DNA of 40,649 nucleotides from Candidatus Peregrinibacteria bacterium (GTDB lineage Bacteria; Patescibacteriota; Gracilibacteria; Peribacterales; Peribacteraceae): assembly GCA_016201685.1 (NCBI GenBank), contig JACQCJ010000008.1, positions 1-40,649 of the forward strand, written 5' to 3'. This document shows, in pieces, positions 1,257-37,598 of this stretch. Numbering within the stretch: the first letter of the stretch is position 1; each line of letters starts with the position of its first letter. The notes under the pieces were generated by a model, which saw only the letters and a list, made by a program, of their open reading frames with translations, ran no database searches and was not told where the DNA came from. Both the position numbers and the translations under genes were made by a program.

Positions 1257-3389
1257 TTAATCGGGGATTTGCTTCTTCTCGCCTCCCAGTTCCTTCCATG
1301 TGAGGCCGGGCAGTGATGCAGGCTCTACGCGTAAACCTTGTCGCGCGAGCTGTGGGCGGAGTTGGCTGAGCGCGGCCTGAATATCGTCGTGGTTGCCGTA
1401 GAGAAGTTCGGCAAGTTTCCAGGGGATGGAACCAGGCATCACTTCTGCGGCTGTGAGGACGGTTTCCACCTGTACCCACGCCGGATGTATGCCATCCTCG
1501 ATGCCCCGCAGGAGCTTTGCCAGCGTGCCATGATAGAGCTCGGGAAAGCGCGAAGCACTGAAAGCTTTTGCACTGATCTCCTGTGCGTGGATGAGTGTTA
1601 AGAGAAGGCGGCAGAGCGGGCGTCGCGACTGTCCTATATGCCCGAACCCCTCCTTCAGGAGTGTTTCTGGAAAGCGCGCATACCAATCGCGTTCGGTTTC
1701 CGGAGTGATCTCTGCACCGCAAGACTCCAGAAGACTTTTCAGCATCGGGAGAGGAGGGCAAGCGCGTTCTTCTGCAATTCTCCTGAGCATCGGCGCACTC
1801 ATGGATCTGCTGCGATCGCCGGTCTTCCGCTGTATGGCCTCCGTCAGGAAATCATAATTGCCCATTCCCTCTCGCAGCAGCAGGACAGTCTGAGCAACGG
1901 TGGTTCCCCGTTGGCAGTGTATGGGCAATTCCCCCTTTCTCCGTCTGCGGTTGAGGGCTTTTTCCGACCGCTTCTGCCCCAAGTCTTCGGTGAGACGAAG
2001 CAATGTTTGCATGATGGTCTCTGAGAGGAATCTTGTTTCAACATTGCCTCGTTCCGTCTCGATGATCTGTTCCCTCAGCAGCGTTGCATCTGCCGCATCA
2101 GCGCGGAGAGAAGATGCAAGTTGTCCCGGTGACACCCCGTTGAATTCCCGAGCAATGCGCAGGATCAATCCCTTGCCTTTTGCCCCCTCGCCGCCGCGCA
2201 GATAATGACGCTCGCGATCGGCATGGAAGAGCGCGCGCAATTGAGCTGTCAATTCCCTATCATCATCGCACACCAGGTCGACCAAGGCCCGCGGCGGCGC
2301 CAGCGTGGAGAGCCCATTTGCTTGCATCATCTTCCGGATGACACTGCTCGGCCGGAAACCCTCCTTCCGGGTTTTCTTGTAGCCTTCCGTTCTTTGCTCC
2401 GGAGGGGTGATGTTGAGACAGTAGGCGAGTTCTTGGTTGTTCCATCCATGTTCGTCGCGCGCCCTTTCCCAGGCGGTGGTGAATGACTGTCGCTTTTTAT
2501 CTTGTACAACCAAGGTCCGCCATGCCGTGTAAAACGCTCCAAGCTCCTTGGCTGGAATCACCCTGCGGGCGATCGATTCGATGGCATCCCATGGCAGGAT
2601 ATCCCCGTTGAGAATGCCGTTCGCTGTTTTTGACTGGAGATCGAACCAGCGGGACATCGTCTTGCCGTTGAGGGTTTCTCCTGCACTGCCCATCTGACGT
2701 TCTGCGCCGATGAGCAAACGTTGCAGCGGCTGTTCGAGTGTTCGCTGCGTATAGCGTGCTGTTTTCTCCCGTGTCCATATCCTTGTTCCCTGTTCGAGTC
2801 GCAGCCTGTGCTTCTTCTCCTGCTCCGCGCCATTGCCCGCATACAGTTCCCGCACAATACGAACCACTTCTGCGAGAGCCGGAACGACTTCTCCCTGTTC
2901 GCGTCCCCAGAGAGTTCCGATGTTGATGCCTGCGGCGCGCTCGAATGCGTCCACGCCGCATTCAATGCAGATCTTGCGATAGAATCCTTCGAAACCTCCT
3001 CCCCTATCCTCCTCGAGCAGTTCGAGCAATTGTTCCCGGATGCCGGAGACGATGCCCTGTTTTTCCCAGAAGCGGAGGATGGCTGTTTTGACGTGATACT
3101 GCTTTTTCTCGTGCCCTTCTCTCTCGAGTTCCAGAAGCGCGACAGCATTGGCGCTGATGCCCGTCGCCTTCGAGAACCGTTTGCGCGACAGATGCAAAAT
3201 GGACCAACGCACCGTTGCGAGGAGCCGTCCGATCTGCGCCGCAGGGAGAGGAAAATCCTTCTCGCTCCTCTCGAAGATGCTGCGCAGCAGATGGTTGTTC
3301 TTCTGGGCTCCTTCGCGCTGGCGCAGAGGCATGCACGCAGGATCCACATAGTCAGGCTGCCGGAGATCAAGGCGTTCATCGGCGTGCAT
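1257..3389 (-). CDS. Poly-HTH protein of unknown function, 710 aa (paralog 1 of 2)
   Basis: Long ORF that overlaps the upstream paralog by 14 nt. It aligns by eye along its whole length with the 3376-5535 product. It contains repeated XRE-like HTH-looking segments (LSRKRFSKATGISANAVALLE; GVDAFERAAGINIGTLWGREQG; NNQELAYCLNITPPEQ; NGVSPGQLASSL). I see no enzymatic motif. Confidence 0.8.
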   Translation of the reverse strand: MHADERLDLRQPDYVDPACMPLRQREGAQKNNHLLRSIFERSEKDFPLPAAQIGRLLATVRWSILHLSRKRFSKATGISANAVALLELEREGHEKKQYHVKTAILRFWEKQGIVSGIREQLLELLEEDRGGGFEGFYRKICIECGVDAFERAAGINIGTLWGREQGEVVPALAEVVRIVRELYAGNGAEQEKKHRLRLEQGTRIWTREKTARYTQRTLEQPLQRLLIGAERQMGSAGETLNGKTMSRWFDLQSKTANGILNGDILPWDAIESIARRVIPAKELGAFYTAWRTLVVQDKKRQSFTTAWERARDEHGWNNQELAYCLNITPPEQRTEGYKKTRKEGFRPSSVIRKMMQANGLSTLAPPRALVDLVCDDDRELTAQLRALFHADRERHYLRGGEGAKGKGLILRIAREFNGVSPGQLASSLRADAADATLLREQIIETERGNVETRFLSETIMQTLLRLTEDLGQKRSEKALNRRRRKGELPIHCQRGTTVAQTVLLLREGMGNYDFLTEAIQRKTGDRSRSMSAPMLRRIAEERACPPLPMLKSLLESCGAEITPETERDWYARFPETLLKEGFGHIGQSRRPLCRLLLTLIHAQEISAKAFSASRFPELYHGTLAKLLRGIEDGIHPAWVQVETVLTAAEVMPGSIPWKLAELLYGNHDDIQAALSQLRPQLARQGLRVEPASLPGLTWKELGGEKKQIPD

Positions 3390-5535
3390 GATCAGTCGTG
3401 AAGGAGGGAAGAGTCGCTGCGTCGTATCCGAGCTCTTCCGGCGTGAGCCCCGGGAGGTGGAACGGATGCACGTTCAGATGTTGCTTGCGCAGAAGAAGGC
3501 GCACATGCTTCAGCGCTTTTGCAACATCATCGTTGTTCTCGTACAGCGCTTGCGCCAAGTTCCATGCCAGGGAACGCGGCGACTCCTCCGCTGCGGTCAG
3601 AATCTGAGAGAGGTAATGCCAGTGAGGTCGTTCCCCTCTTTCCAGTCGCTGAATCGTCTGCAACGCCGTCGCTTGATGCATGTCCGGAATGCGCTCGCGA
3701 CAGAAGTCGCCGATGGTAATGGCATGAGCATGGATGAGTGTCAGGAGGAGTCGCGGCAAGGGTTTTGTGAGCGGGAGACGCCTCCTGGACTGGAGATGCA
3801 GAGGGAAGTGGACAAACCAATCCGCCATCACTTCTTCGGAGAGCGATGTGCCGCATGCCTCCAGCATTGTGCGCACGAGCGGCAAGGGGGGGCAATCTTC
3901 TCCGCTCGCGATTCTTCGCAGCCGCCCCGGTCCCAGCATCCATCGTACGTCCGATGCGTTCTCGCGCACTCGATCGGAGAGATGACGGAATCCCCGGAGG
4001 CCTTCCGCCGGGAGGGCTGCCGCCTCACGCACGGTCGCAGCATGGAGGCAGTGTTCGGGAATGACGCCCGGTCGGCGTTGCCTGGACCGCGCCGATGCGA
4101 GCTTCTGATATCCGATGGCATCGATCGCGCGGAGCATCCCGGCAATTTCCTTCCGATGCGTTTCCTCTTCGGGAATATAGCCCCACTCGATCCGGGCGAG
4201 TCGCGTGGCCAATCGAGACGCGTCGCTCGGATGCTTCCGACAGAGTTCCTCTGCGACTTGTATGGGTGTTGTGCCATTGCATTCCCGACTGATGCGGAGC
4301 CGAAGGCCGATGCCGCTTGTATCGCTGCCGCTGCGGCGGTAATGACGTTCCCGCTCAAGAAAAAAGAGCTCGAGCAGTCTTTTCTCCGTCTCCTCATCCC
4401 CTGCGACCAAGCCGATCTGCGTGCGGATACAGGCCTGATCGAAGAAGCCCCCCTCCCTGATGGAGCGCCGTATGGCAGCGGATTTGCGATAGTTCTGCTT
4501 TCGTTCGATGGCATGGGACTTTCCACGATCCTTGGAGTCGCGGATGTCTTGCGCATAGGCCAGCTCCGCGAGTTGTATGTGCCGCAGCTCGCGCACATGG
4601 TGGAATTCTTTTTCAAATGTGATCCTCCCCTGCTCTGTTTTCCACGCGTCATTCCATGCAACTGCGAGCGCGCGGCGACGTTCTTCGGGCAATACTGAGT
4701 GTGCCAGATGCTGCACGACATCCCATGGCACGAGCTTGCCGTTCATCAGATCGTTTGCAGCCTGCTGATTCATTCCCAACTTTTTCCAGAGAAGAGGGCC
4801 GGCCAGAATCTTCCCGTGCTCTTCCGCAACATGAATTTCCAGCGCGATGAGAAAGTCGGCCAGTGTCTCCTCGAGTGTCCGCTCGCGCAGTTGTTGTCTC
4901 TTCTCGTTGGACCATGCATTTTGTCCCTGGTGCAAGCGCGTCGCATGCAATGCATCATCCCTGTTCCTGCCGCCGAAGAGCTTCTGCACGATCGACTGCA
5001 CCGTGAGGTAGGGAGGAACGGTCGCACGTGCTTTGTGATGACTGAGTTTTTGCAGATCGATTCCGGAAAACGCTGTAAACCGCTCCGGGCCCACCTCGTA
5101 CATCAGCCGTTGGTAGAATCCTCCGAGTCCGCCGTGTTCTTCCTGCAGGAGCTCGAGGAGTTGTTCGCGGATTTCCCGGACAATGCCCTGCTTCCGCCAG
5201 AAGGCGAGGACACGTGCGAGAATGTCGCGGTGCGTGTTCTCCAATGGCCGTCCGTTCTCGAGATTCATGTACGAGGCGAGACCGATCCCCGCTTTGCGAA
5301 CGAACGCGCGTCGCGTCAATTCCAGGATGGGCCAGCGGACCGTCACCAGGAGCCGCCCGATCTGCGCTTGTGGGGATGGAAATGACTTCTCCGTCTTTCG
5401 AAAGACGCTGCGAATCATCTGATTATTCATGCTTGCATGACTGGATGCCGGAGACGGAAGTCCTTCCGTTGCGACGAGCAGCGGTTCTGCGAGGTCGATG
5501 GGATTGTGCGTCGCCATAGGAATGCGGTTGATCAT
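3376..5535 (-). CDS. Poly-HTH protein of unknown function, 719 aa (paralog 2 of 2)
   Basis: Long ORF whose start overlaps the upstream helicase stop by 4 nt (ATGA). Blocks shared with 1257-3389 include AQIGRLL.TVRW.IL, W.KQGIV..IREQLLELL, ERERHY.R.G and RLLLTLIHA. Confidence 0.8.
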   Translation of the reverse strand: MINRIPMATHNPIDLAEPLLVATEGLPSPASSHASMNNQMIRSVFRKTEKSFPSPQAQIGRLLVTVRWPILELTRRAFVRKAGIGLASYMNLENGRPLENTHRDILARVLAFWRKQGIVREIREQLLELLQEEHGGLGGFYQRLMYEVGPERFTAFSGIDLQKLSHHKARATVPPYLTVQSIVQKLFGGRNRDDALHATRLHQGQNAWSNEKRQQLRERTLEETLADFLIALEIHVAEEHGKILAGPLLWKKLGMNQQAANDLMNGKLVPWDVVQHLAHSVLPEERRRALAVAWNDAWKTEQGRITFEKEFHHVRELRHIQLAELAYAQDIRDSKDRGKSHAIERKQNYRKSAAIRRSIREGGFFDQACIRTQIGLVAGDEETEKRLLELFFLERERHYRRSGSDTSGIGLRLRISRECNGTTPIQVAEELCRKHPSDASRLATRLARIEWGYIPEEETHRKEIAGMLRAIDAIGYQKLASARSRQRRPGVIPEHCLHAATVREAAALPAEGLRGFRHLSDRVRENASDVRWMLGPGRLRRIASGEDCPPLPLVRTMLEACGTSLSEEVMADWFVHFPLHLQSRRRLPLTKPLPRLLLTLIHAHAITIGDFCRERIPDMHQATALQTIQRLERGERPHWHYLSQILTAAEESPRSLAWNLAQALYENNDDVAKALKHVRLLLRKQHLNVHPFHLPGLTPEELGYDAATLPSFTTDHARR

Positions 5536-7922
5536 GAAGGTGAGTTCACAGTGACGCGTCTCCTTCGCTCGTCAATGCTCTTCATTGCTCTTTTCATCTG
5601 CAGCAGAACGTAATTGCCAGAAAACCGTTTTCTCCTCGCTTCGGCAATATAGTCTTTCACGCGCGCCTCCATGGAAACCCTGTAAGAGCCCGTTCGTTCC
5701 GCGTAGAATCCGCGATCCCTTTCTTCCGCATATTGCATGAACGCTTCGATGCTGAGAAGGTCGCACGGCGTGTTGTACAGCTCCGCTTCCAATGTGTTTC
5801 CGAGTGAGGGAGCCGTGGCTTCCAGCGGCGTGCCGCGCTTCTCGGTCTTCGCGCGGTGCTCCATTGCCGAAGGAATCTTTGAGGAAGGGAATGCCTTGCC
5901 TCCCTGCGTCTTCTCACGATCCGCCTCGTACGCCTTGCTGCCCATGATGCAGTGATCATCGACCCAGGTGAGTGCATTCTTGGGCACGAGACCCTGGTCT
6001 TCCAACAGGCGCAGGATCGTCAGTTCCGGGTTCATGTCGCTCAGGAGCTGTTGCCAGAAGAGCGCGCGGTAATTCTGCGGACCACGGCGATGTCGCATGC
6101 TGTGCGTCAGCCGTCCGAAGAGTTGCATGAGCTGATGCTCGTTCATCTTCGCCATCGCGACGCACAGTTCAATGTTCTCAAGATGCACCGCCATGCCCAT
6201 GTTGGTCGTGGTTGAGACTGCGAAGTGGGGCAACTGGTCAGGCTGGTCCTGCTCGTTGACGAACCAGAGTTGGATTCCTTCTTTGTCATTCCCGGACTTG
6301 CCGTCGTGGCAGAGGACTTTCCCGGGCAAGTTCCGCTCTTTGAGCTGCCGTTCCAAACGGTGCGCCACTTCGCGAGTCGTCGACGGAGGGACGACGATGA
6401 GACTGTTGCGCTGCCACGGCTGTTTTTCTCCCAACTGCTTCAGAAGGAGTGATTCCTTGAAGAATGCTCCTTCGAACTGTGCGTACGCCTCCTCCGTTCC
6501 GCTTCCGTGGACGTCTCTTCCCTGTGTTCCAATCAACCGAAAGCCGATGTTCGGGAGGATGCCCCGCTCGACGGCTTCGGGAATGCTGAGGGAAGGCGAG
6601 CGTGTCCACAGAGGCACCAGCTGATCTTTTCCGGATGCGGCGATGATCACCGGCGGCTGTTTGCCTCCCGCCTCCCGCACGGGTGTCGCGAATTGGAGCG
6701 GGTTCATTGCCACTGCTTCATCGAGCGTGATGAACACGGTGCCTTTGAGGAGGTTGCCGATTGCTTCCCTTGACCGATGACCAGTGAAGGAACCTGACGT
6801 CAGCAACAAAAAGCGGGGTGTTGCCACAGCATCCTTGGGTTCAGGAGAGTTCTTCATTATTCGCCATTCTTTCCTTCCGACATGGATGGGAAAATCACTT
6901 GCAGGAATCCCATACGTCGCATCTCCTCCATACGCAAGTCGGTCTTTCTCTCCTAGTGGAGGAATGGGAGGAGCGGCAATCAGATCAGGGTGATTGTAGA
7001 TGCCTCTGACGATCACGTGCGATCCGTCGATCAGCTTGCCTATCTGTTCGATGCACGCATGTGCATTCGGTACGGTCTTCTCGAATTCTTCCAGTCGGTT
7101 TCGATCCTGCAGGGATCGGCGCACGATTTCCGCGCCGGCTGCAGTGCCCCGCTCGCCCGTGAACAATGGAGACCACACCTTTCGCGAGATACATCTCTGC
7201 ATCTTGTCCCCATAGAGCTTCGCAATATCGCGGTAGTACCGACTGATCTCTTGAGCAGTGACGGTATAGGGGGGGCTCCGGAGAATCCGTTGTTGTGCGC
7301 CGAAGGCCTGCTGGGCCATATGGGTCGGCTTTGCCGTGACGAATGCGCCGATTTTGGGATCCTCTCCTTCCTCCACACGGCGGTCTTGCCAGCGCAAGAA
7401 TGCTTCGTTGCAGACTCCAAGCTCGATCGTTTTGCCGCTTCCGGGGGGATTGCGGAGCAGAATCGCGGCCATCTCGCCGCGTTTCCCGGTGCACAACGAA
7501 GCCAGGACGTAGAAGAGATGTCCGATCTGGTCTTCGCGCATGTGCAGTCCGTTCACCTTCCACCGGCGCCATTCGAGTTCGGTGAGGAGGAGGGCGAGCT
7601 CACGGGTGAGTTCCTGCGAGAATGCGTCCGACTGCCGATACCGCTCTTGGATGAACAGCTGCGGATCCGCCGGTGACGGCTCAATCTTCTGACTCGATTC
7701 CGAGCGCATTCCCTTTCCCCACTTCCAATGCGATTCGTCATGGTAGACTTTGATCATGAGCCGATGCAGTTGCGTGTAGATTTTCCCGAATTCTCTTGTG
7801 GGAGACCCGTCGCGCTCGATTTCAGGCAAAGCCGGCAATGCGAAGAAGATCTTGGGAATCATGGAGGATGAGGAGGGCAATCCTAGTCGTATTCTTCGTT
7901 CATGGACAAGGGATTCATTCAT
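5532..7922 (-). CDS. Divergent SF2 helicase-like ATPase, 796 aa
   Basis: Motifs: Walker A-like PPGSGKT (nt 7428-7448), motif II FITLDEAVAM (LDEA at nt 6714-6725), IIAASG, a helicase C-domain-like STTTNMGMAV and QLFGRLTH. Motifs I and II are ~235 aa apart. The termini are unassignable. An alternative start exists at 7862. Confidence 0.75.
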   Translation of the reverse strand: MNESLVHERRIRLGLPSSSSMIPKIFFALPALPEIERDGSPTREFGKIYTQLHRLMIKVYHDESHWKWGKGMRSESSQKIEPSPADPQLFIQERYRQSDAFSQELTRELALLLTELEWRRWKVNGLHMREDQIGHLFYVLASLCTGKRGEMAAILLRNPPGSGKTIELGVCNEAFLRWQDRRVEEGEDPKIGAFVTAKPTHMAQQAFGAQQRILRSPPYTVTAQEISRYYRDIAKLYGDKMQRCISRKVWSPLFTGERGTAAGAEIVRRSLQDRNRLEEFEKTVPNAHACIEQIGKLIDGSHVIVRGIYNHPDLIAAPPIPPLGEKDRLAYGGDATYGIPASDFPIHVGRKEWRIMKNSPEPKDAVATPRFLLLTSGSFTGHRSREAIGNLLKGTVFITLDEAVAMNPLQFATPVREAGGKQPPVIIAASGKDQLVPLWTRSPSLSIPEAVERGILPNIGFRLIGTQGRDVHGSGTEEAYAQFEGAFFKESLLLKQLGEKQPWQRNSLIVVPPSTTREVAHRLERQLKERNLPGKVLCHDGKSGNDKEGIQLWFVNEQDQPDQLPHFAVSTTTNMGMAVHLENIELCVAMAKMNEHQLMQLFGRLTHSMRHRRGPQNYRALFWQQLLSDMNPELTILRLLEDQGLVPKNALTWVDDHCIMGSKAYEADREKTQGGKAFPSSKIPSAMEHRAKTEKRGTPLEATAPSLGNTLEAELYNTPCDLLSIEAFMQYAEERDRGFYAERTGSYRVSMEARVKDYIAEARRKRFSGNYVLLQMKRAMKSIDERRRRVTVNSPS

Positions 7923-7992: not shown

Positions 7993-8991
7993 ATGCGCTC
8001 CGATGAATATCCGATTGTCCGGCACATTCTCGACGGCGGATCGCCGAAGGCTCACGTTTTCCATCTCGATGTTCTTCTGAACGGCACCTCCCGCGGACAC
8101 GCTCTTCTTGGTCCCACGATGTACATGGACCATGGTCGAGCGATCTCACCTTTGGGAGCAATCCGCTGCATCGCCGACGTGAACAGAACGGCGACTTTCC
8201 TGCGCGGCGTTCATGAAGCCATCCGCGACGTGCTCGCGAGGACGCGTCGCCGCCCGCTCCAGGTGCTCGATGCCGGGTGCGGGCCGTACGCCGCACTCAC
8301 GCTGCCTCTGCTCAGCCAGTTCGACGAGGGACAGATCCATCTCGATTGCGTGGACATGCACCCTTCTTCGTGTGAGCAGGTGGTGCGTACCGCCCGTGCG
8401 TTCCGCCAGGAATGCGTTCATGTGATCTGCGGCGATGTGATGAGACATCCCGAAGTCCGCCGACGCCTCTACGATGTGATCGTCACAGAAACGCTCTATT
8501 CGGCATTGTTGCAAGAGCCTCAAGCGGCGATCACGGCGTCGCTCGCGCCCCTGGTTCGACCGGATGGCGCGTGGGTTCCCGCATCGGTACACGTTCGCGC
8601 GTATCTCGCGGACAGGAGTTCTCGTGAGAACGTGGAGACGGAACATGTGGGACAGATTGCAGCGCTTTCCCCTGCGTCCGCCCAAGAACTTGTCGAACAA
8701 GGCATCGACCGAACGTTCGCGATTCCTCGTAGCGTCCAGCATGATGAACGAGAGCGCAAACTCATGCTCGGGACTTCGATCGACGTGTACGGCGCTCACA
8801 TGCTGCGCGAAGAGGGGGCGCTCCTGACCAGTGCCGCCCCGTTCGGGAGAATGCCTGTCGCGCCTCGGCCGGAAACTGTGCACATTCGCTACCGGCCGGG
8901 AGGCGAAGTGGATGAAGTGAAGATCGAATGGGGCTCGAGTGATGACGTCAGCGAATCGTCACGGAGACGAATCTCCTCTTCCCCACCTTGA
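7993..8991 (+). CDS. Class I SAM-dependent methyltransferase, PRMT-like
   Basis: Motif I is VLDAGCGPYA (from nt 8263). There is an acidic post-I residue (HLDCVDM). VTETLYSALLQE has E-x8-E spacing (nt 8488-8517), like the PRMT double-E loop. I chose the ATG at 7993; the upstream part of the ORF overlaps the divergent helicase gene. The 3' end overlaps tyrS by 44 nt. Confidence 0.7.
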   Translation: MRSDEYPIVRHILDGGSPKAHVFHLDVLLNGTSRGHALLGPTMYMDHGRAISPLGAIRCIADVNRTATFLRGVHEAIRDVLARTRRRPLQVLDAGCGPYAALTLPLLSQFDEGQIHLDCVDMHPSSCEQVVRTARAFRQECVHVICGDVMRHPEVRRRLYDVIVTETLYSALLQEPQAAITASLAPLVRPDGAWVPASVHVRAYLADRSSRENVETEHVGQIAALSPASAQELVEQGIDRTFAIPRSVQHDERERKLMLGTSIDVYGAHMLREEGALLTSAAPFGRMPVAPRPETVHIRYRPGGEVDEVKIEWGSSDDVSESSRRRISSSPP

Positions 8992-21933: not shown

Positions 21934-22407
21934 ATGCGTACCGCCACACGCTCCGCAGCAAAGAAGAAATTCCCTTCCTCCTCTGTTATGCCGCATGTGA
22001 TGTTCCTGACGAAGGATGAGCAGAAGCTCTTCTCGAAACTCCCTTCTTCTTTGCAGGAGGGGTGGGAGGTAAAGGAGGAGATGCTGACGTTTGATGATTC
22101 GGACGAACGCCGACGCATGAGGATTGCCGTGATGCATCTGCATGATCCCAAATTACTCTCATTCCAAGAGAAAGCAGGAACAATCACAAATGCTGAGGAG
22201 TTGTTCAAACTCGCTGGAAAAATCGACCTGACGAAAGTGCAGGAAAGCGACTTGGCGGAGATCTACTTCGCCCTCGGCCCCTCAGGCATTTCCATGTTTG
22301 TCATTCCTCTTCTCGAGGAAGCACAGTCCGATGACAAAGTAGAATCTGTCGCTGCCCTCACACATGTTCGGCACGCTCTCCTGGAATCCATGCAGCCCGT
22401 TTCCTAA
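21934..22407 (+). CDS. Hypothetical protein (~157 aa)
   Basis: ORF with coding-like composition. It is the first gene of a tightly spaced same-strand trio. The start is uncertain (ATG 21934 or 21988). No family recognised. Confidence 0.55.
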   Translation: MRTATRSAAKKKFPSSSVMPHVMFLTKDEQKLFSKLPSSLQEGWEVKEEMLTFDDSDERRRMRIAVMHLHDPKLLSFQEKAGTITNAEELFKLAGKIDLTKVQESDLAEIYFALGPSGISMFVIPLLEEAQSDDKVESVAALTHVRHALLESMQPVS

Positions 22408-22414
22408 TTTTCGT

Positions 22415-22996
22415 ATGGCAACTGAACAAGAGGAAATCCCTCGCCCAGATCGATCGGCTTCCCCAGAGAAAATCCTTGCCCCCAAGGATATCGCCCGCAT
22501 CCTCGGCCGTCCAGTGGCGGAAGTGGAGAGCGATCTCAAGAGTAAGGATGACCGGGATGTGCTCATCTCCAAGCTTGAGAATCAGCAAGAAGTGAAGGAG
22601 ATGTTCGGGAAGAACGTCCCGAAGTTGCGTGAACAAGTGAATCTCCTCGGCGAAACCCTGAACCAGAAGAAGGGATTCTTCGGAAAGCTGAAAGAGATGG
22701 GCGGCTGGGTATGGGAAAAGACGAAGGCGGTGTTGGGTAATAAGTGGGTGCAGCTTGGCATCTTAGCTGTGCTCGTATACCTGGGTTATCGCAATTGGGA
22801 CAAGATCATGAGTATAGCGAAGGAAGTAACAGGCAAGGTCTTTGCCTCTGCAAAAGAGGTTGGGATGGGGGCTCCATCAACGACTGCCGCTCCCATCACA
22901 GAAACTCTTCGGAACACGGCAGGATCTGCTGGTGTCGGTCCTATGAGTGGCGGAACGGTTGCGGAGAAAGCAGGAAAAGCGTTCTATCCGAATTGA
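22415..22996 (+). CDS. Hypothetical single-pass membrane protein (193 aa)
   Basis: ATG at 22415, 7 nt after the previous stop. One predicted TM helix (WVQLGILAVLVYLGY) and charged, coiled-coil-like flanks. Confidence 0.6.
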   Translation: MATEQEEIPRPDRSASPEKILAPKDIARILGRPVAEVESDLKSKDDRDVLISKLENQQEVKEMFGKNVPKLREQVNLLGETLNQKKGFFGKLKEMGGWVWEKTKAVLGNKWVQLGILAVLVYLGYRNWDKIMSIAKEVTGKVFASAKEVGMGAPSTTAAPITETLRNTAGSAGVGPMSGGTVAEKAGKAFYPN

Positions 22997-23035
22997 GAAG
23001 TTTCTTAAAAATACACATTCTATACCAATTCCCGT

Positions 23036-26000
23036 ATGCCGTTGGATCAGCTGAAAGAAAGTGCAGAGAACGATTCGCCGAAAGAATTGGCGCGACTTGC
23101 TGATGAAGTGCTGCGATTGTCCGGATATGTTGAAGGTCCCTTGAATTCTGGAAAGAACCGGCTGCCGCTCATCGCAACGCCGGAATGGAAAGTGTGGGCT
23201 GAGGAATCGCCGCGACCAATTAATGGCACAGAACTCTTTCAAAAAGCAGATCCTTTGGAAAAACTTGTTCTCTCTCCGAATGCTACAAGTTTCGCCAATG
23301 TAGTTCAGTATGCATTCTTGCAGTTTGTTGGCGACTCAACGCAGCTTGAGCAGAAGTCCCGAGATGTAGAACTCTTGAAAGACGTCAATCTCAAGAAGAT
23401 TCTGTGGGTTTTCGAAGAAGGAATGCTCTTTGACTTCGTCAGCACGGTCAAAAAGTATGCGGAATACTGCGAGACCCACCAATCGACTCTTGGCGAAGCG
23501 CGAAATAAAGGTTGGGAAAGGGAAGTGAAGAGTATTTTGACAAACTTAAAAGCAGTGCTTCCAAAGATTGCCATTGCCTTGCAAATCAATTATGTCGAAC
23601 AGACCGCAGGTCTCGCTCAGAAACAGAATGACCCGAACCGCGCTGCGAAGATGAAACAAAATTCGGGTGATCTTCGCAAAGAACTACTCAAAATCACAGG
23701 CAAGGAAACGGTGAAACTCAAGGTCGATGGCAAAGAAGAAGATATTTCCATCAGCCAAGACATTTCACCCGAGCAACTCGAAAAAGCCCTTTGGGAATGG
23801 GATCGACAATTGCGCGATACACTCGGAACGCATGTACCGTACGAAGTGAAAGCGGATTACTTCGGCAAGAGAATGGAGAAACTATTCCAAGAGATTGCGA
23901 AATACACCAATACGGAACAATTTATCTTCGGGAAAGAGAATCCGCAGATGCGACAAACGCGCATCGCACACGCGATGTACGGAACGATGGTCATGAAACA
24001 TTTGCATGAGGTGACTGATCAGATCTTTCCAACGGAGAAGGATGGCAAGAGGGTCCCCGTTTCCGTCGAGCGCATTGATGAATTATCCCGCACGCTGGAA
24101 AAAATGGACGGGGCATGGCAGGAGTACGCTCCCGCAATTGTTGGATTTCAGCTCGATACGACGTCAATGCTCTATCTGATGGGACAAATGGGTCCGTATG
24201 TCAGACAAGCTGTTGAGGATTTGACCCCCGACGAAAAGGAATTTTATCGCAAGCACATGCTCCCGAAGGAAATCGTTGGTGAACTAGAAAAAAAACAACC
24301 CGAACTGAATATTGCACATCTCATTCAATATACATCTCTTCTTCAGAAGGACCTGACAGCGAAAGTTGGTCAGGCTCAAGCCTTGGATACGCTTGTCACG
24401 GGCATGGAAGAATCCATCCTCAATACGATCATTCAAGGTCTCAACGACGTAAAAATCACGGCAATAGATGTGACATGGTGGTTACCAGGTAAAGCTCTTG
24501 ATCTTGTGAACCTCTCGCGATTGAAACCTGAGGATGTTCGCAGAGTGCAGCAGATTGCGGCGTTGTACAGCAGGCTCACAGCGATGAAAGAGCGCGTTGT
24601 GCGGGGCCGCGAGAAGATTCGAAATACGAAGAAAGCTCTCCAAGAGGCGGCAAAGCTTTCCCAAGAAACGCTCCAGAAAATGGAGAAGAAACTCGCGTCG
24701 GAGGGCCAGAGACAAGTGACGCAAGCAGATCTGCAGGATGTTCGTCTGATGAACCAACGTGTGATGGCAGCAACCAATTATCTCGTGGATATGAATGCCG
24801 ATTTGACGACCATGATGATCTTCAATGCCTTGGGCTCCAGTGGATACGCGAATAAGCACGATCTCAGTGTGTGGACTGCTATCGAAATTGCACCATTCTA
24901 CGATTGGCTATTAATGGGAGGTTGGGGTGGGCGCGCGGTGACAGAGACTCCTGGTGCATTACTTCGCGGCACCGCGCGCCTTGTCGGAGCCGTCGGTGGA
25001 AAAATTCCCGGCTCCAAACTTGCGGCAAAACTTATCGGAAAGATTCCAGGTGCTACCAAGTTTGGCAATGCTCTTAATTCGGTGACATATGGCCCTGGCT
25101 ACATCGGGCGCGCATATCAGTATACAAGTCCTTCCCATTTCGTGGGACGAGTGGTAAACGAGAGACGGCAATTAGCGAATAGCGCCAATTCAGCGGCTGC
25201 ACGTTCTTTGCATGAATTATCATTAGATAAAGCTGGACGTATTGGCCTTTCAGAGCGTGCAATGGCGCTGGAATCTTCACTGAAATTCGATCCATCGAAG
25301 CTCACTGCCGAAGCGAAGAGTGCAATCGGTGATGCTATTTGGAATGCTCATGATATCGAGATGACTGGTCCGAAATGGACGTACAAGGAGTTGCGGGCAA
25401 AGATCGATATACTCAAAGGAGCAGGGCTTTCGAAGGATCAGGCATTTTTCCTCGTGAAAAATGGTTTCTGTGGCGATTTCACGGTCGAGGAAATTGCTGC
25501 GATGTTGCAGAAGAACGTTGGTCCTCAGGCCGCAGAGGAGTTCCTTGTATCGGCTCAAAAATTATTGATGAGTGCAGAGACAGCGAACATTATGGCCAAG
25601 CTCTCCATCGGTGCCGCTGCCATTGGAGAGGGCATCGCATTGCGATCGAGCCTCAATGATCTGGCCGACCAAATGAATCGCATCACCAAAGTAAAAGAAC
25701 AGATGCATCAGACACTGATCGGCTTGGGTTTCATCTACGATGCAAAAACCGAGACATATATGAATGAAGAGGCGGGCGTGAAGGTCTCACTCCAGCAGCT
25801 ACAGAAACCACTCGACGTCACAACCCAGCCGGATCTTCTCCGCAGCATCGGTCATGGCGCCAACCTCACGGCAATTCTTGGTGGAGGAGCTGCGCTGTAC
25901 TTGGGTGCGGAGATCGCGTTGGGGCCTGCGGGAATTGCGATTGCCGCCGTCGGGGTGACGGTCGAAGTCGTCGCGTCCGCCATTCGGAATCGTCAACACA

Positions 26001-28450
26001 GGCAACTGATCGCACAATGGCCGGCGTGGTTGCTTGCAGCGATGGGCGGCGCGAAAGTCCTCGGCAGAACGGAATACGACATGATCACAAACGCGTCTTC
26101 CTGGACGCTGATCCCGGAGAACGAGCGAACGATGAAGGATGTCCGAGACAAGAATTACTTCATGCTCTTCAGTTCGGAACTCGCTGAACGGGCTCGCCCT
26201 CTGTACGACCGCATCTTCCGCAGCAAGAATGATCCGCGCAGCATAGAGGATTTCTTCCGCGGGGACTTCAGGACCGTCACGCTCCCGTATCTTTTCCTCT
26301 GCCTCGCGCGCGCGGCGCAGAAGATGGGCGTGCCCCCACAACAACTGGATGAGTTGAGGCAAGGCAGGATTGATACCGGTCTTGGGATTCTTCCGCGAGC
26401 CGTCTGCGAGACGCTCGTTCGACAAGCGTGTCTGGAAGCAGCAGTGTTCACACTGCAAGATTTCGAGCAGATGCGCCTGAACCGACTTCTCTACGCGCGG
26501 AAGGACTATGAAGATCAGCCGGAATCGGAGGAATACAAGCGCCTGTCACGCGCAGTTGAACTTCAGAGTCAGAAGAAAATTTTCGGGAAAACGATGGGAG
26601 AACTCGTCGGGCAGAAGTCGAGGCTCGATGACCCCAGCGTCCCTCCAACGCTTGCCCGCTGCATTCTGCGCGACCTGCAGCGTCAGCTCGAGAATGGAGG
26701 AACGATGACACTCACTGGTCTTTCATCCAAGTATCCCGGTCTTCCCGATACTCTCGATTTTGGCGCATCGGATACGCTCGCGAGTCTCTGCATCAGCGAC
26801 CCGGCTCTTCGTTATAATCTCAAGAAAATCGGCCCGAAGACCGTGGAAGAGCAGCACGCCATGCCGCTCTTTGGAACGGCGTTCGCCCCAAACGAACCCG
26901 AGCGCATCGTTCACCGCGAAACGGTCAATGTTCTCCTCCGTACCGCAACGGGAAAGGAAGACGGGAAACTTCCGGAGAATGCAAGCGAGTACGCTACGCA
27001 CGACGTTCTGACGCGTGCTGCTGTTGCACTGTTTCAGAAAGAGCCTCAGAAACTTGAGGAATTTCGCATGCTCTCAAGTGCTTCCCCATTCCACTATTTC
27101 CGTGGTGAGGGAGATCCGTTGCCATTCGAGGGCGCAGCACAGAAACAAGCATTCCAAGGCGAAAAGCTCGTCGCGATCTTCCAGCAACAGAGAGTCCTCA
27201 CCGATGGCAACACACTCGCGCTCTTCACGTGCGTCTACGGCGATTCCGGAAATCCGCGAGACATAATCGTCTCGCAAGAAGCGCAGGAAAAAATCCAGTA
27301 CGTCAGCGGGCACCATCGCTTCGAGAACAAGGCGCTCTCCCTCTTGCCGGATCTCACGGAATCCTCCGCAAAAATGAAGGAAGAAATGAAGGAACGTCGC
27401 GAGCCCGTGCGCGGCGAGCCCGAACACTTCATCGGCATTCCCGACATTCAGATGCTCTCCTCTCTCGGGCACACCGGTCAGTATCTTCTGGATCAGATTC
27501 AATCGACGGAAGCCTCGGAACGTGAACGAACGGAGATACGGGCGATGATCGATGCACTCCGCGGTGATAACCCCCCTCTTCCAACTCCGTCGCGCTACAG
27601 TAACCAAGAACTCCTTTTCTTTCCCGACGAGCTGCGTACTTCTCATAAGGAGCTCGGCGTGAAGTCCTTGCAAATCGAGAATCGTCGCACGGAATACATG
27701 ACAATGAAGAATCGTTTCCTTACCGAACTCCGCCAACGTGATTCTTCTCGTGGCCAAAGTACTGCTTCATCGTCGGAGATCGAGCAGATTCGCTCGCAGT
27801 ATGAGGAGATCCAAAGAGTTCGCAGTACGTATGAGGTCTCCGAGAAACAGTATCGGTCGGAAATCGAGAGTCTGCGGGAAAGTATTCTCGGCATGAAGAA
27901 TGTCACGAGCACGGCGTTGCGATCACTCAGTGCGCGGGAGCAATTTCAGAATCGTCTTGAGGCACAGCTTCCGAAAACCGGGCCGGGCGCTCTTTCGCTC
28001 CTTCCGACAAAATCCGCACAGGAAGATACGGCCGTTCGCGATACCCTCTTTCCAACCGAGAAACCGTACGTGGCAGTGAGCGGAAATCTCGACAAGCAAT
28101 CGGACATACCCGTTCTGCAGTCGATTCTTGCGATGCCTTCTCTCCCGCGCAAAAACCTTCTTGCCGTCTACATCGGCAAGGACTCGGATCCGAAGACAGG
28201 CGATCGTCTGTTGCTCGAATTGCTGTACAGCGAGGATGTGCGAGCGAATCCTCCCATACTGCAGCGACTGTCTCTCGGATGTCAGCACATCGATGGCCAA
28301 TGGGAAATTGGATTGCCGATCGCGAATGCGAGTCGATATCCAGTCGATCGGACTGAGCGAAAAGCGGATGCTGTCTTCAATCCTACTCTTCCGAATTACC
28401 TCGTATCCCTTGTGGATGCAGCGAGAGCGAAATTGTCGAAGCAGCCATGA
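23036..28450 (+). CDS. Giant hypothetical membrane protein, 1804 aa
   Basis: Uninterrupted 5.4-kb ORF. It has no signal peptide. Hydrophobic segments lie near nt 24870-24935 (VWTAIEIAPFYDWLLMGGWGG), 25861-25980 (NLTAILGGGAALYLGAEIALGPAGIAIAAVGVTVEVVASAI) and 26010-26060 (WPAWLLAAMGGAKVLG). It is otherwise helical and charged, with no recognisable domain. Confidence 0.85.
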   Translation: MPLDQLKESAENDSPKELARLADEVLRLSGYVEGPLNSGKNRLPLIATPEWKVWAEESPRPINGTELFQKADPLEKLVLSPNATSFANVVQYAFLQFVGDSTQLEQKSRDVELLKDVNLKKILWVFEEGMLFDFVSTVKKYAEYCETHQSTLGEARNKGWEREVKSILTNLKAVLPKIAIALQINYVEQTAGLAQKQNDPNRAAKMKQNSGDLRKELLKITGKETVKLKVDGKEEDISISQDISPEQLEKALWEWDRQLRDTLGTHVPYEVKADYFGKRMEKLFQEIAKYTNTEQFIFGKENPQMRQTRIAHAMYGTMVMKHLHEVTDQIFPTEKDGKRVPVSVERIDELSRTLEKMDGAWQEYAPAIVGFQLDTTSMLYLMGQMGPYVRQAVEDLTPDEKEFYRKHMLPKEIVGELEKKQPELNIAHLIQYTSLLQKDLTAKVGQAQALDTLVTGMEESILNTIIQGLNDVKITAIDVTWWLPGKALDLVNLSRLKPEDVRRVQQIAALYSRLTAMKERVVRGREKIRNTKKALQEAAKLSQETLQKMEKKLASEGQRQVTQADLQDVRLMNQRVMAATNYLVDMNADLTTMMIFNALGSSGYANKHDLSVWTAIEIAPFYDWLLMGGWGGRAVTETPGALLRGTARLVGAVGGKIPGSKLAAKLIGKIPGATKFGNALNSVTYGPGYIGRAYQYTSPSHFVGRVVNERRQLANSANSAAARSLHELSLDKAGRIGLSERAMALESSLKFDPSKLTAEAKSAIGDAIWNAHDIEMTGPKWTYKELRAKIDILKGAGLSKDQAFFLVKNGFCGDFTVEEIAAMLQKNVGPQAAEEFLVSAQKLLMSAETANIMAKLSIGAAAIGEGIALRSSLNDLADQMNRITKVKEQMHQTLIGLGFIYDAKTETYMNEEAGVKVSLQQLQKPLDVTTQPDLLRSIGHGANLTAILGGGAALYLGAEIALGPAGIAIAAVGVTVEVVASAIRNRQHRQLIAQWPAWLLAAMGGAKVLGRTEYDMITNASSWTLIPENERTMKDVRDKNYFMLFSSELAERARPLYDRIFRSKNDPRSIEDFFRGDFRTVTLPYLFLCLARAAQKMGVPPQQLDELRQGRIDTGLGILPRAVCETLVRQACLEAAVFTLQDFEQMRLNRLLYARKDYEDQPESEEYKRLSRAVELQSQKKIFGKTMGELVGQKSRLDDPSVPPTLARCILRDLQRQLENGGTMTLTGLSSKYPGLPDTLDFGASDTLASLCISDPALRYNLKKIGPKTVEEQHAMPLFGTAFAPNEPERIVHRETVNVLLRTATGKEDGKLPENASEYATHDVLTRAAVALFQKEPQKLEEFRMLSSASPFHYFRGEGDPLPFEGAAQKQAFQGEKLVAIFQQQRVLTDGNTLALFTCVYGDSGNPRDIIVSQEAQEKIQYVSGHHRFENKALSLLPDLTESSAKMKEEMKERREPVRGEPEHFIGIPDIQMLSSLGHTGQYLLDQIQSTEASERERTEIRAMIDALRGDNPPLPTPSRYSNQELLFFPDELRTSHKELGVKSLQIENRRTEYMTMKNRFLTELRQRDSSRGQSTASSSEIEQIRSQYEEIQRVRSTYEVSEKQYRSEIESLRESILGMKNVTSTALRSLSAREQFQNRLEAQLPKTGPGALSLLPTKSAQEDTAVRDTLFPTEKPYVAVSGNLDKQSDIPVLQSILAMPSLPRKNLLAVYIGKDSDPKTGDRLLLELLYSEDVRANPPILQRLSLGCQHIDGQWEIGLPIANASRYPVDRTERKADAVFNPTLPNYLVSLVDAARAKLSKQP

Positions 28451-29379: not shown

Positions 29380-29565
29380 ATCCTGAAGGAATTCGCCTTC
29401 TCCTCGGGAGACTGGAATTGTCAGAATCGAGCAGTGAAGTATTCAATTCTCGACATTACACAAGCAAGTCACAACTCAGAGAAGCCGTCTACCCGAACCG
29501 TTCGAAGAACTTTTACTCCTGTCAATCTTCTGGTAGAACGAGGGATGTTCTTCCCCCTGCCCCGC

Positions 29566-30681: not shown

Positions 30682-30715
30682 GGGCTCGGCAGATGGTATG
30701 GCGAGGTACAAACTA

Positions 30716-30744
30716 TTGACTATTTGACTTTCATAAATTAAAAT
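30716..30744 (+). promoter_or_regulatory. Putative promoter giving a leaderless mRNA for the AAA ATPase gene
   Basis: TTGACT (30716-30721), a 17-nt spacer, then TAAAAT (30739-30744). The ATG at 30751 is 7 nt past the -10. Confidence 0.45.
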
Positions 30745-30750
30745 AGACGC

Positions 30751-36857: not shown

Positions 36858-36874
36858 TGGGCTGGTGCTACACT
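36846..36874 (+). promoter_or_regulatory. Promoter-like motif inside the left direct repeat
   Basis: TTGACG (36846-36851), a 17-nt spacer, then TACACT (36869-36874). It points into the 3' end of the NYN gene, in antisense. Confidence 0.35.
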
Positions 36875-37419: not shown

Positions 37420-37455
37420 GGCGGGGACAAGGCAAGATTGGCGCGAAGAATAGCA

Positions 37456-37475
37456 GATTGTGGTTGACGGCGGAT
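37456..37475 (+). repeat. 20-bp direct repeat, right copy, flanking the NYN gene
   Basis: gattGtggttgacggcggat is 19/20 identical to 36838-36857. Confidence 0.8.
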
Positions 37476-37598
37476 AGATCTCGTCGAAATTGTCATCGGT
37501 TGGATCATTCCGAGCATTGACCATGGTCGAATGACGGGTGGAACATTGGGTGTTCGCCATGATGGGGCAGGCCTGCTATCGTTTTCGCCTTCTTTCCT

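What the first reader, a model, noticed from the sequence alone, without database searches (positions are those of the whole stretch)
1257..7922. Translationally coupled operon: divergent SF2 helicase-like ATPase plus two tandem ~715-aa poly-HTH paralogs (candidate undescribed system)
Three same-strand ORFs are packed with a 4-nt ATGA overlap (5532-5535) and a 14-nt overlap (3376-3389), so they are probably co-translated.

The first ORF (796 aa) keeps SF2-type motifs: PPGSGKT, LDEA, IIAASG, STTTNMGMAV and QLFGRLTH. However, motifs I and II are ~235 aa apart. The first ~150 aa and the last ~180 aa resemble nothing I recognise.

The next two ORFs are clear paralogs of each other. Examples: AQIGRLLVTVRWPILELTRRAF vs AQIGRLLATVRWSILHLSRKRF; WRKQGIVREIREQLLELLQEE vs WEKQGIVSGIREQLLELLEED; ERERHYRRSG vs DRERHYLRGG; RLLLTLIHAHAI vs RLLLTLIHAQEI. 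Each looks like a string of six or seven degenerate XRE-like helix-turn-helix modules with no catalytic motif.

I know of no named system that pairs a helicase with a duplicated giant poly-HTH partner. A motor ATPase with large multivalent DNA binders fits a defence, mobile-DNA control or nucleoid-organising role. A PRMT-like methyltransferase is transcribed divergently 70 bp away.
Basis: partly seen in the sequence, partly recalled or inferred. Interest (0 to 1): 0.75.

Follow-up and report, generated by a model that had tools for sequence, protein, structure and literature searches.

The report
Conserved helicase plus HTH-partner gene pair
A candidate-phylum bacterium (Peregrinibacteria) carries a previously undescribed gene module, a new family of SF2 helicase-like motor tightly coupled to one or two large all-helical partner proteins with helix-turn-helix DNA-binding domains; the module is conserved and inherited with the chromosome across the lineage, but its function is unknown.

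Summary
Three minus-strand ORFs (796, 719 and 710 aa) overlap by 4 and 14 nt. The quoted motifs are present. The two downstream proteins are full-length paralogs (35% identity, E 2e-131).

The first protein founds a real but unnamed SF2 helicase family. Exhaustive phmmer found 68 representatives. The AF2 model (pLDDT 87.8) matches only generic SF2 motors (Ssl2/XPB, Snf2, DEAH) at 10-15% identity. The Q motif, Walker A, Walker B and motif VI arginine are invariant.

The partner is all-alpha. It has one reasonably supported XRE-type HTH (residues ~55-118) and two to five weaker ones. "Six or seven" is not shown.

The helicase-partner pairing is conserved in 15 distinct loci. It was found from the helicase side (10 of 12 loci) and from the partner side (7 of 8). 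Two members are attributable to Candidatus Peregrinibacteria.

Identities of both proteins track LigA identity. ligA lies nearby in 6 loci. There are no phage, plasmid, PADLOC or PHROG matches.

I read it as a chromosomally fixed motor-plus-HTH complex acting in a DNA transaction, rather than a mobile defence island. The neighbouring methyltransferase is unrelated. The module is new and uncharacterised, but it is a variant of a known kind.

The parts
5532..7922 (-). SF2 helicase-like ATPase (H). The longest ORF is 796 aa. The probable true start is M21 at nt 7862 (776 aa).
   Evidence: ORF; translation. The family has 68 representatives. AF2 gives pLDDT 87.8 and pTM 0.86. Foldseek matches SF2 motors only. 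The public gene call is 776 aa.
7527..7529 (-). Codon of Q132, the invariant Q-motif glutamine upstream of Walker A.
   Evidence: Invariant in the 42-sequence alignment A2.
7428..7448 (-). Walker A / motif I, PPGSGKT (residues 159-165).
   Evidence: G163 and K164 are invariant in A2.
6717..6722 (-). Walker B / motif II, D401-E402 of LDEA.
   Evidence: invariant in A2. Aligned to the Hef helicase motif II region.
6102..6113 (-). Motif VI-like GRLTH (R604...H607).
   Evidence: R604 and H607 are invariant in A2.
3376..5535 (-). Partner A: 719-aa all-alpha protein with XRE-type HTH content.
5182..5373 (-). Best-supported XRE-like HTH module of partner A (residues ~55-118).
   Evidence: hhalign against an XRE reference gives 58-69% probability. 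The family profile matches MqsA and a designed HTH at E 0.25-0.66. HTH_19 at residues 72-96.
3835..3936 (-). Second HTH-like stretch of partner A (residues 534-567).
   Evidence: Pfam HTH_31 scores 27.2 bits for the whole protein (cut-off 27) and HTH_3 scores 19.3 bits.
1257..3389 (-). Partner B: 710-aa paralog of A.
   Evidence: B keeps all family-invariant columns.
5532..5535 (-). ATGA stop/start overlap between H and A.
3376..3389 (-). 14-nt overlap between the end of A and the start of B.

Best explanation
This is a chromosomally fixed, vertically inherited module of Peregrinibacteria-type bacteria.

It encodes a nucleic-acid motor complex with two kinds of component:
- A catalytically intact SF2 ATPase or translocase. 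It belongs to a new family whose core is closest to the ResIII/COG1061 (Ssl2/XPB-like) helicases.
- One large all-helical partner, or two in this lineage. The partner's XRE-type helix-turn-helix module(s) tether or target the motor to DNA.

Shown here:
- The SF2 fold and the invariant ATPase motifs.
- Homology and full-length conservation of the partners.
- Conserved adjacency and tight spacing of the genes, and concordant divergence of helicase and partner.
- A chromosomal, housekeeping context with recurrent ligA synteny.

Inferred, not shown:
- That the proteins form a stoichiometric complex. The basis is the stop/start overlap and co-evolution.
- That the substrate is DNA. The basis is the HTH content, the Ssl2/Snf2-like best structural matches and the ligA neighbourhood.
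- That the role is a housekeeping DNA transaction (repair, recombination, replication restart or transcription-linked remodelling) rather than defence.
- That A and B act together, for example as a heteromer, in the window's clade.
For: Helicase:
- Exhaustive phmmer found 68 representatives, mostly 730-930 aa and full length.
- Q132, G163-K164, D401-E402 and R604/H607 are invariant.
- Family members give weak ResIII, DEAD and SLFN-helicase Pfam hits.
- The family profile aligns to Hef helicase on motif II and the second RecA domain.
- The AF2 model has pLDDT 87.8.
- Foldseek top hits are Ssl2/XPB, Snf2/BAF, Chd1, CSB, DEAH helicases and Lhr. Viral 'SSL2 superfamily II' helicases also match.

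Partner:
- Fifteen full-length homologues align end to end.
- HTH_31 or HTH_3 hits occur in 3 of 9 members.
- Local Foldseek matches to HipB, C.Esp1396I and XRE regulators reach probability 0.9-1.0.
- hhalign and PDB-profile matches fall on residues ~49-118.

Pairing:
- The partner is adjacent to the helicase in the window, L003, L004, L005, L006, L007, L008, L011, L015 and L016.
- In the search that started from the partner, 7 of 8 loci have the helicase directly upstream.
- Gene spacing ranges from a 38-nt overlap to a 26-nt gap in the same-strand loci.
- Helicase and partner pairwise scores correlate, r = 0.69.

Vertical inheritance:
- Helicase and partner identities track LigA identity across 5 genomes.
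- ligA lies within about 4.5 kb in 6 loci, although their helicases are as little as 23% identical.
- Flanking genes are housekeeping.
- The module's GC content matches the contig.

No mobile or defence signal:
- Searches found none.

Duplication:
- The duplication predates the split of the window lineage from the L003 lineage.
Against: - No biochemical data exist. Complex formation is inferred only from gene arrangement.
- Two clades (L006, L016) have the partner transcribed divergently, so translational coupling is not universal.
- The most distant helicase relatives (L012/L013, L014) lack the large partner.
- Only one HTH module has reasonable statistical support, and the partner model is poor (pLDDT 48.9).
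- Partner pI ranges from 5.2 to 9.7. This does not suggest non-specific DNA coating.
- The helicase also resembles DEAD/DEAH RNA helicases at similar scores, so an RNA substrate is not excluded.
- Both proteins evolve roughly twice as fast as LigA. That rate would also fit a conflict-related role.
- Taxonomy is established for only two members.
Confidence: 0.5

Rival explanations
1. A new anti-phage or anti-plasmid defence system. The HTH partner(s) sense or bind foreign DNA, and the SF2 motor acts as the effector or translocase, as in the helicase-plus-partner systems Hachiman and DISARM.
For: - The helicase-plus-accessory-protein architecture is common in defence systems, and DrmA appears among the structural matches (rank 44).
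- Some family members give weak PADLOC hits: mad8 in 8 of 42, plus AbiO and Nhi.
- Both proteins evolve about twice as fast as LigA.
- The partner is duplicated and, in one case (L004), highly divergent.
- The partner is replaced by another HTH protein in L012.
Against: - The window proteins have no PADLOC hit. Hits in other members are at P-loop level, with E no better than about 6e-5.
- No nuclease, methylase or other effector domain was detected.
- Flanks are housekeeping genes, not a defence island.
- Synteny with ligA persists at 23-25% helicase identity.
- Divergence tracks LigA.
- No homologues were found in phages, plasmids or IMG/VR.
- The module is retained on a 724-kb contig, possibly most of a very small genome; its completeness was not assessed.
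Confidence: 0.15
2. An RNA helicase module. The SF2 protein remodels RNA or RNP (ribosome biogenesis, RNA decay). The helical partner is a scaffold or cofactor whose HTH-like folds mediate protein or RNA contacts rather than DNA binding.
For: - DEAD Pfam hits occur in 6 of 42 members.
- DHX15, Prp43, Spb4, UAP56 and M. jannaschii DEAD-box structures are among the top Foldseek matches.
- The Q motif is invariant.
- XRE-fold MBF1/EDF1, which bind ribosomes, are among the partner's local matches.
- Neighbours include S16 and KhpA in L015, and S2 and EF-Ts in L004.
Against: - The best structural matches are dsDNA translocases: Ssl2, Snf2, Chd1 and CSB.
- ResIII hits outnumber DEAD hits.
- The partner's best sequence and structure matches are DNA-binding XRE repressors.
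- The recurrent neighbour is ligA.
Confidence: 0.12
3. There is no complex. The large HTH protein is simply a transcription factor that regulates the adjacent helicase gene, or itself, and the helicase works alone.
For: XRE-type regulators commonly sit next to, and often divergent from, their targets. The divergent arrangement exists in L006 and L016. The distant relative L012 has a small winged-helix regulator-like gene downstream.
Against: - A conserved, co-evolving protein of 710-780 aa is far larger than a local regulator.
- Stop/start overlap or gaps of 26 nt or less occur in most lineages.
- Conservation extends along the whole length, not only the HTH.
Confidence: 0.1
4. Cargo of an integrated mobile element, or a selfish addiction-type module.
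For: XRE HTH proteins and SF2 helicases are common on mobile elements. The module's position differs between distant genomes.
Against: - No integrase, transposase, tRNA or flanking repeats occur nearby.
- There is no GC anomaly.
- No phage, plasmid or viral-contig homologues were found.
- Synteny and divergence are concordant with LigA.
Confidence: 0.03

Closest known systems
XPB/Ssl2 (Rad25, COG1061 'SSL2') helicases and the archaeal/bacterial XPB-Bax1 pair
   Same: Ssl2 is the best PDB structural match (7o4k chain 7, E 1.2e-6). The best viral matches are annotated SSL2-type SF2 helicases. Both are SF2 cores with a Q motif. The motor is encoded next to a dedicated partner of similar size.
   Different: Identity is only 10-15% and TM is 0.24-0.31. 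There is no Pfam or NCBIfam hit to XPB/ERCC3 models. A family-specific insertion of about 235 aa separates motifs I and II. The partner is an all-alpha HTH protein, not a Bax1-type nuclease.
Snf2-type remodellers with HTH-like DNA-binding modules (Chd1 and ISWI with SANT-SLIDE; bacterial RapA)
   Same: Snf2/BAF, Chd1, ISWI and CSB are among the top structural matches. The logic is shared: an SF2 dsDNA translocase combined with helical, HTH-type DNA-anchoring domains.
   Different: There is no SNF2 Pfam signature. Here the DNA-binding part is a separate polypeptide of XRE type, not a fused SANT/SLIDE domain. The resemblance is functional analogy only.
Helicase-plus-partner defence systems (DISARM DrmA/DrmB, Hachiman HamA/HamB, MADS, Nhi, AbiO)
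   Same: Both have a two- or three-gene operon with a large SF2-type helicase and uncharacterised partner(s). DrmA is a structural match at rank 44. Weak mad8, AbiO and Nhi hits occur in a minority of family members.
   Different: The window proteins have no PADLOC hit. There is no nuclease or DUF1998-type partner. The chromosomal context is housekeeping and syntenic, and inheritance is vertical.
XRE/Cro-C1 family HTH regulators (HipB, MqsA, C.Esp1396I)
   Same: At least one module of the partner matches this fold by sequence and by predicted structure.
   Different: Known members are about 70-130 aa with a single HTH. The partner is 710-780 aa with about 35 helices, and most of it matches nothing.

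Membership tests
SF2 helicase superfamily | Two tandem RecA-like domains | tested here: met
   The AF2 model has pLDDT 87.8 and alternating beta-alpha cores at about 150-430 and 455-625. Foldseek gives probability 1.0 to many SF2 helicases: 187 PDB hits at E <= 1e-3, and all of the 50 listed are SF2.
SF2 helicase superfamily | Motif I (Walker A GxGKT) and motif II (DExx) | tested here: met
   GSGKT at 161-165 and DEA at 401-403. G163, K164, D401 and E402 are invariant in 42 sequences.
SF2 helicase superfamily | Q motif upstream of motif I, and a motif VI arginine | tested here: met
   Q132 and R604 (in GRLxH) are invariant.
SF2 helicase superfamily | Nucleic-acid-dependent ATPase, unwinding or translocation activity | not testable with these tools
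   Needs purified protein.
XPB/Ssl2 (Rad25) family | Match to the family profiles (ERCC3/RAD25-type models) | tested here: not met
   The window protein has no Pfam or NCBIfam hit. Family members hit only generic ResIII, DEAD and AAA models. Structural TM is only 0.24-0.31.
XPB/Ssl2 (Rad25) family | XPB-specific elements (RED motif, thumb insertion) | not tested
   Neither the RED motif nor the thumb insertion was examined. The protein instead carries a family-specific insertion of about 235 aa between motifs I and II.
Snf2 family | SNF2-type ATPase signature (SNF2_N profile, helical protrusions) | tested here: not met
   No SNF2 Pfam hit in any of 42 members at E <= 0.01.
XRE/Cro-C1 HTH family (partner proteins) | Match to HTH_3 or HTH_31 profiles at the curated threshold | tested here: inconclusive
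   Partner A scores 27.2 bits on HTH_31 against a cut-off of 27, but only as a sum of sub-threshold stretches. B has no hit. Three of 9 partners hit HTH_31.
XRE/Cro-C1 HTH family (partner proteins) | Five-helix XRE fold | tested here: inconclusive
   Local Foldseek matches to HipB (TMt 0.67, rmsd 2.0 over 57 columns, probability 1.0), C.Esp1396I and 2ofy. However, E is about 1 and the model is low-confidence.
   BLAST self-comparison finds no internal repeats. hhalign between putative modules gives at most 30% probability. Against an XRE reference, only 71-111 (58-69%) and 306-332 (about 33%) stand out.
Known anti-phage defence systems (PADLOC-DB 2.0) | Profile match of the components to a catalogued system | tested here: not met
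   No hit for H, A or B at E <= 1. Only weak hits appear in a minority of family members.
Restriction-type ResIII helicases (type I HsdR, type III Res) | Associated nuclease domain and cognate methyltransferase/specificity genes | tested here: not met
   No nuclease domain was detected. The adjacent methyltransferase is not conserved with the module in any other locus.

The most novel reading that the evidence does not exclude
The module could be a lineage-defining, possibly essential DNA-remodelling machine of Peregrinibacteria. It would be a bacterial counterpart of the eukaryotic and archaeal XPB/Snf2-type dsDNA translocases. Its DNA-anchoring subunit would be a separate giant multi-HTH protein, duplicated into a heteromer in some lineages. 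It would act with the replication or repair apparatus, given the ligA neighbourhood. It might take over functions that other bacteria assign to other motor proteins.
Probability: 0.2. Interest if true: 0.75.

Novelty: new variant of a known kind. Interest (0 to 1): 0.55.

Why it matters
Candidate-phyla-radiation bacteria have tiny genomes, yet this lineage keeps 4.5-6.7 kb for a helicase and partner module. No curated family, defence catalogue, solved structure or paper describes it.

The work here turns three "hypothetical proteins" into a defined two-family module with:
- a confident structural model of the motor;
- family signature residues;
- a phyletic and syntenic pattern pointing to a core DNA transaction.

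The result is directly testable by co-expression, ATPase and EMSA assays, and multimer prediction. It could reveal how these uncultured bacteria handle DNA repair or transcription-coupled remodelling. It also illustrates that an apparent orphan in a word-indexed search was not an orphan.

Tried and rejected
1. Word-indexed homology searches. Searches with H, A and the 42-sequence profile returned only self and missed even the in-window paralog. I rejected these as evidence of orphan status once exhaustive phmmer found 68 representatives.

2. My own early idea that the motifs (GxPGSGKT, DEA, GKDQL) indicate SF1 rather than SF2. I rejected it because the family has an invariant Q motif and every listed structural match is SF2.

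3. Pattern-based locus scans. GTDB genomes with A1 and A4, JGI metagenomes with A4 and IMG/VR with A4 and A6 found nothing. A2 and A3 were too divergent to give patterns. Only the partner pattern [GEA][VI]REQ[LCI]L[DE]L[LYI] worked, in metagenomes. The negatives in GTDB genomes reflect narrow patterns, not absence.

4. Internal-repeat detection in the partners. I used BLAST, a home-made 4-sequence XRE HMM, Pfam on 110-aa segments and hhalign module against module. Signals were weak, so the poly-HTH count is left open.

5. Foldseek on the low-confidence partner model. It gave only local HTH hits at E about 1. I use it as supporting evidence, not as proof.

6. The divergent methyltransferase as part of the system. 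Rejected, because it is not conserved.

7. Operator-like repeats in the upstream intergenic region. Nothing convincing was found.

8. Organism names for the other loci via cluster look-ups. None was obtained.
Full report
**Observation**

The window carries three long ORFs on the minus strand:
- H, 5532-7922, 796 aa.
- A, 3376-5535, 719 aa.
- B, 1257-3389, 710 aa (translations).

The H stop and A start share ATGA at 5532-5535. The end of A and the start of B overlap by 14 nt at 3376-3389.

Walker A K164 and Walker B D401 are 237 residues apart. A and B align over their whole length at 35% identity, E 2e-131.

One correction concerns the start of H. The public gene call, and the alignment with homologues, favour M21 (nt 7862, 776 aa). 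That leaves 130 bp to the divergent methyltransferase gene, which starts at 7993.

**Context**

The contig is chromosomal. It carries:
- grpE at 441-1091;
- a Methyltransf_25 protein at 7993-8991;
- tyrS, an RluD-like pseudouridine synthase and pilT;
- a PBP2-type transpeptidase, glmS and recA.

No tRNA or Rfam element is present. The module's GC content (0.565-0.59) matches the contig average.

The GlmS protein falls in a 90%-identity cluster with a protein named as from 'Candidatus Peregrinibacteria bacterium'. One helicase homologue, P0037 (MBM3231139.1), is a 'hypothetical protein' from the same candidate phylum. The same operon occurs on two Logan contigs from runs SRR12113409 and SRR12113410.

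**Curated libraries and literature**

- Pfam, NCBIfam, PADLOC and PHROGs give nothing for H and B. For A they give only a borderline HTH_31 score of 27.2 bits against a cut-off of 27.
- PDB sequence searches with the single proteins give nothing.
- Two full-text searches found no paper linking Peregrinibacteria with such a helicase and HTH pair.

**The helicase is a real family, not an orphan**

The word-indexed homology search returned only self for H, for A, and even for a family profile. It missed the in-window paralog, so those negatives carry no weight.

Exhaustive phmmer over 1.84 billion representatives found 68 proteins at E <= 1e-3, of which 33 are at E <= 1e-30. Most are 730-930 aa and match nearly end to end.

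In a 42-sequence alignment the invariant positions are:
- Q132 (Q motif);
- G163-K164 (Walker A);
- G333, with D334 nearly invariant, inside the insertion between motifs I and II;
- D401, with E402 nearly invariant (Walker B);
- R604 and H607, in a GRLxH motif VI.

Scanned one by one, family members give only weak generic hits: AAA_16 in 11 of 42, ResIII in 8, DEAD in 6 and SLFN-type helicase in 5. The family profile aligns to the archaeal Hef helicase across motif II and the second RecA domain, E 8e-4.

An AlphaFold2 model built on the 42-sequence alignment is confident, with mean pLDDT 87.8 and pTM 0.86. This includes the N-terminal ~120 residues, most of the ~165-residue insertion, and the C-terminal region, where confidence is somewhat lower.

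Foldseek against the PDB returns only SF2 motors among the matches listed:
- Ssl2/XPB in TFIIH as the best hit (E 1.2e-6);
- the Snf2-type ATPases of BAF and PBAF, plus Chd1, ISWI and CSB;
- DHX15, Prp43 and Lhr;
- RECQL5, HsdR and DrmA.

All these are at 8-15% identity with a query-normalised TM of 0.17-0.33. Against viral models, the best hits are 'SSL2 superfamily II' helicases at about 10% identity.

So H is an SF2 ATPase with an intact catalytic apparatus. It is nearest the broad ResIII/COG1061 group but belongs to none of the named families. My early suspicion that the motifs were SF1-like is rejected by these results.

**The partner**

The AF2 model of A was built from only two sequences. 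It is all-alpha with about 35 helices and is poor (pLDDT 48.9).

Its Foldseek matches are meaningless globally. Locally they hit XRE-fold proteins: HipB (57 columns, rmsd 2.0, TMt 0.67, probability 1.0), C.Esp1396I, 2ofy and 1y9q.

Fifteen full-length partners from different loci align end to end at 18-36% identity to A. Three of nine give HTH_31 hits and two give HTH_3 hits. The family profile matches MqsA and a designed HTH protein at profile positions ~49-118, with E 0.25-0.66.

| Test of the poly-HTH claim | Result |
|---|---|
| BLAST self-comparison | No internal repeats |
| Pfam on 110-aa segments of A | Only residues 72-96 and 535-567 stand out |
| hhalign against a small XRE reference | 58-69% probability for 71-111, about 33% for 306-332, under 5% elsewhere |
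| hhalign module against module | At most 30% probability |

The fair statement is one reasonably supported XRE-type HTH, two to five weaker candidates, and a large remainder with no detectable relatives.

Partner pI ranges from 5.2 to 9.7 across lineages. That argues against a generic DNA-coating role.

**Conserved pairing**

Contig look-ups for helicase representatives show the following arrangements.

| Locus | Arrangement |
|---|---|
| L003 | H followed by two partners |
| L004, L005 (partner cut by the contig end), L007, L008-L010, L011, L015 | H followed by one partner |
| L006, L016 | Partner transcribed divergently from H |

Homology of these neighbours to A and B was confirmed with a partner HMM, with E values from 1e-15 to 1e-289.

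Two distant helicase relatives lack the large partner:
- L012/L013 carry a 219-aa double winged-helix gene directly downstream instead.
- L014 has no partner within reach.

Searching from the partner side in JGI metagenomes gave eight loci. Seven have the helicase immediately upstream on the same strand. The eighth contig is too short to tell.

Fifteen distinct loci therefore carry the pair. Host-contig GC ranges from 42% to 61%. The ancestral unit is H plus one partner. The tandem duplicate is seen only in the window and in L003. L003's first partner is much closer to A (380 bits) than to its own neighbour (201 bits), so the duplication predates the split of those two lineages.

**Mode of inheritance**

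- Helicase and partner pairwise scores are concordant (Pearson r = 0.69). The L004 partner is a fast-evolving outlier.
- ligA lies convergent within about 4.5 kb downstream of the module in L003, L008, L011, L019, L022 and L024. The helicases of L003 and of L008/L011 are only about 23% identical.
- In the five genomes with complete ligA, helicase and partner identities rise and fall with LigA identity. LigA is 65-83% identical, H 38-65% and the partner 42-70%. The two closest LigA pairs are also the two closest helicase and partner pairs.
- Flanks elsewhere are housekeeping genes: topA, HU, dnaJ, recJ, tsf, rpsB, purB, rpsP and msrB.
- One host contig is 724 kb.
- H and A have no tblastn match in 50,697 phage or 72,556 plasmid records.
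- No relative was found in IMG/VR with patterns from either protein.
- PADLOC hits in family members are weak and partial.
- The divergent methyltransferase recurs next to the module in no other locus.

**Interpretation**

The evidence fits a chromosomally fixed, vertically inherited motor-plus-adaptor module. It comprises an active SF2 ATPase and a dedicated, co-evolving helical partner whose XRE-type HTH(s) provide nucleic-acid binding, most probably to DNA. The proteins are probably made in fixed proportion through translational coupling.

A housekeeping DNA transaction is more likely than defence, mobile-DNA control or bulk nucleoid organisation. Candidates are repair, recombination, replication restart or transcription-linked remodelling. 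The specific process is not determined. Complex formation, substrate and activity are all inferences.

Several points leave the rivals open:
- Both proteins evolve fast.
- Partner arrangements vary: tandem, duplicated, divergent, or replaced by a small winged-helix protein.
- The helicase resembles DEAD/DEAH helicases about as well as DNA translocases.

This keeps a defence role (about 0.15), an RNA role (about 0.12) and a simple regulator role (about 0.1) alive.

**Novelty and score**

Both protein families are unnamed, and the pairing is undescribed in every library and text I could search.

Conceptually, though, an SF2 motor with a dedicated nucleic-acid-binding partner is a familiar design. 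Examples are XPB-Bax1, Snf2 motors with SANT/SLIDE domains, and helicase-plus-partner defence systems. I rate it a new variant of a known kind, with interest 0.55.

It is a solid, testable, lineage-specific module in a poorly understood phylum. It is not, on present evidence, a categorically new mechanism.

Noticed in passing
window 22364-28450 (+): An 1804-aa ORF (23036-28450) has no Pfam hit and only a faint PHROG hit. It is preceded by a 210-aa ORF that also has no Pfam hit. Both lie in a lower-GC stretch (0.46-0.52 against about 0.57 for the contig). This may be a giant surface or foreign protein.
   Followed up: no
L012 12642-13791 and L013 5425-6574: In the most distant helicase clade sampled (P0055/P0078), the large partner is absent. 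A 219-aa protein with two winged-helix domains (HTH_5/HTH_20) and a 160-aa protein sit directly downstream of the helicase instead. This suggests the DNA-binding partner has been swapped.
   Followed up: partly
L003 7733-8845; L008 10712-12946; L011 8708-10861; L019 10446-12581; L022 10123-12231; L024 8636-10744: NAD-dependent DNA ligase (ligA) lies convergent within about 4.5 kb downstream of the module in six loci, across helicase identities as low as about 23%. In four of them a TPR protein and a response-regulator gene lie in between. The window itself has grpE at this position.
   Followed up: partly
window 7993-8991 (+): The Methyltransf_25-domain protein transcribed divergently from the helicase is not found next to the module in any related locus, so it is not part of it. 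The 'PRMT-like' assignment was not tested beyond Pfam.
   Followed up: partly
window 29434-31965 and 36868-37560: Three unstudied genes: a Sigma70_r4 plus HARE-HTH protein, an AAA_14/DUF4143 ATPase, and a NYN-domain (putative RNase) protein.
   Followed up: no
method (versus 34): The word-indexed protein search returned only the query itself for H, for A and for a 42-sequence profile, and it missed the 35%-identical paralog in the same window. The exhaustive HMMER search found 68 family representatives. Apparent orphans from the word index should not be trusted for such divergent families.
   Followed up: yes
L004 2621-4924: The partner in L004 is far more divergent (18% identity to A; BLAST barely detects it) than its helicase (34% identity to the window's). 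It also carries a C-terminal insertion of about 65 aa. This is an unusually fast-evolving partner in one lineage.
   Followed up: no
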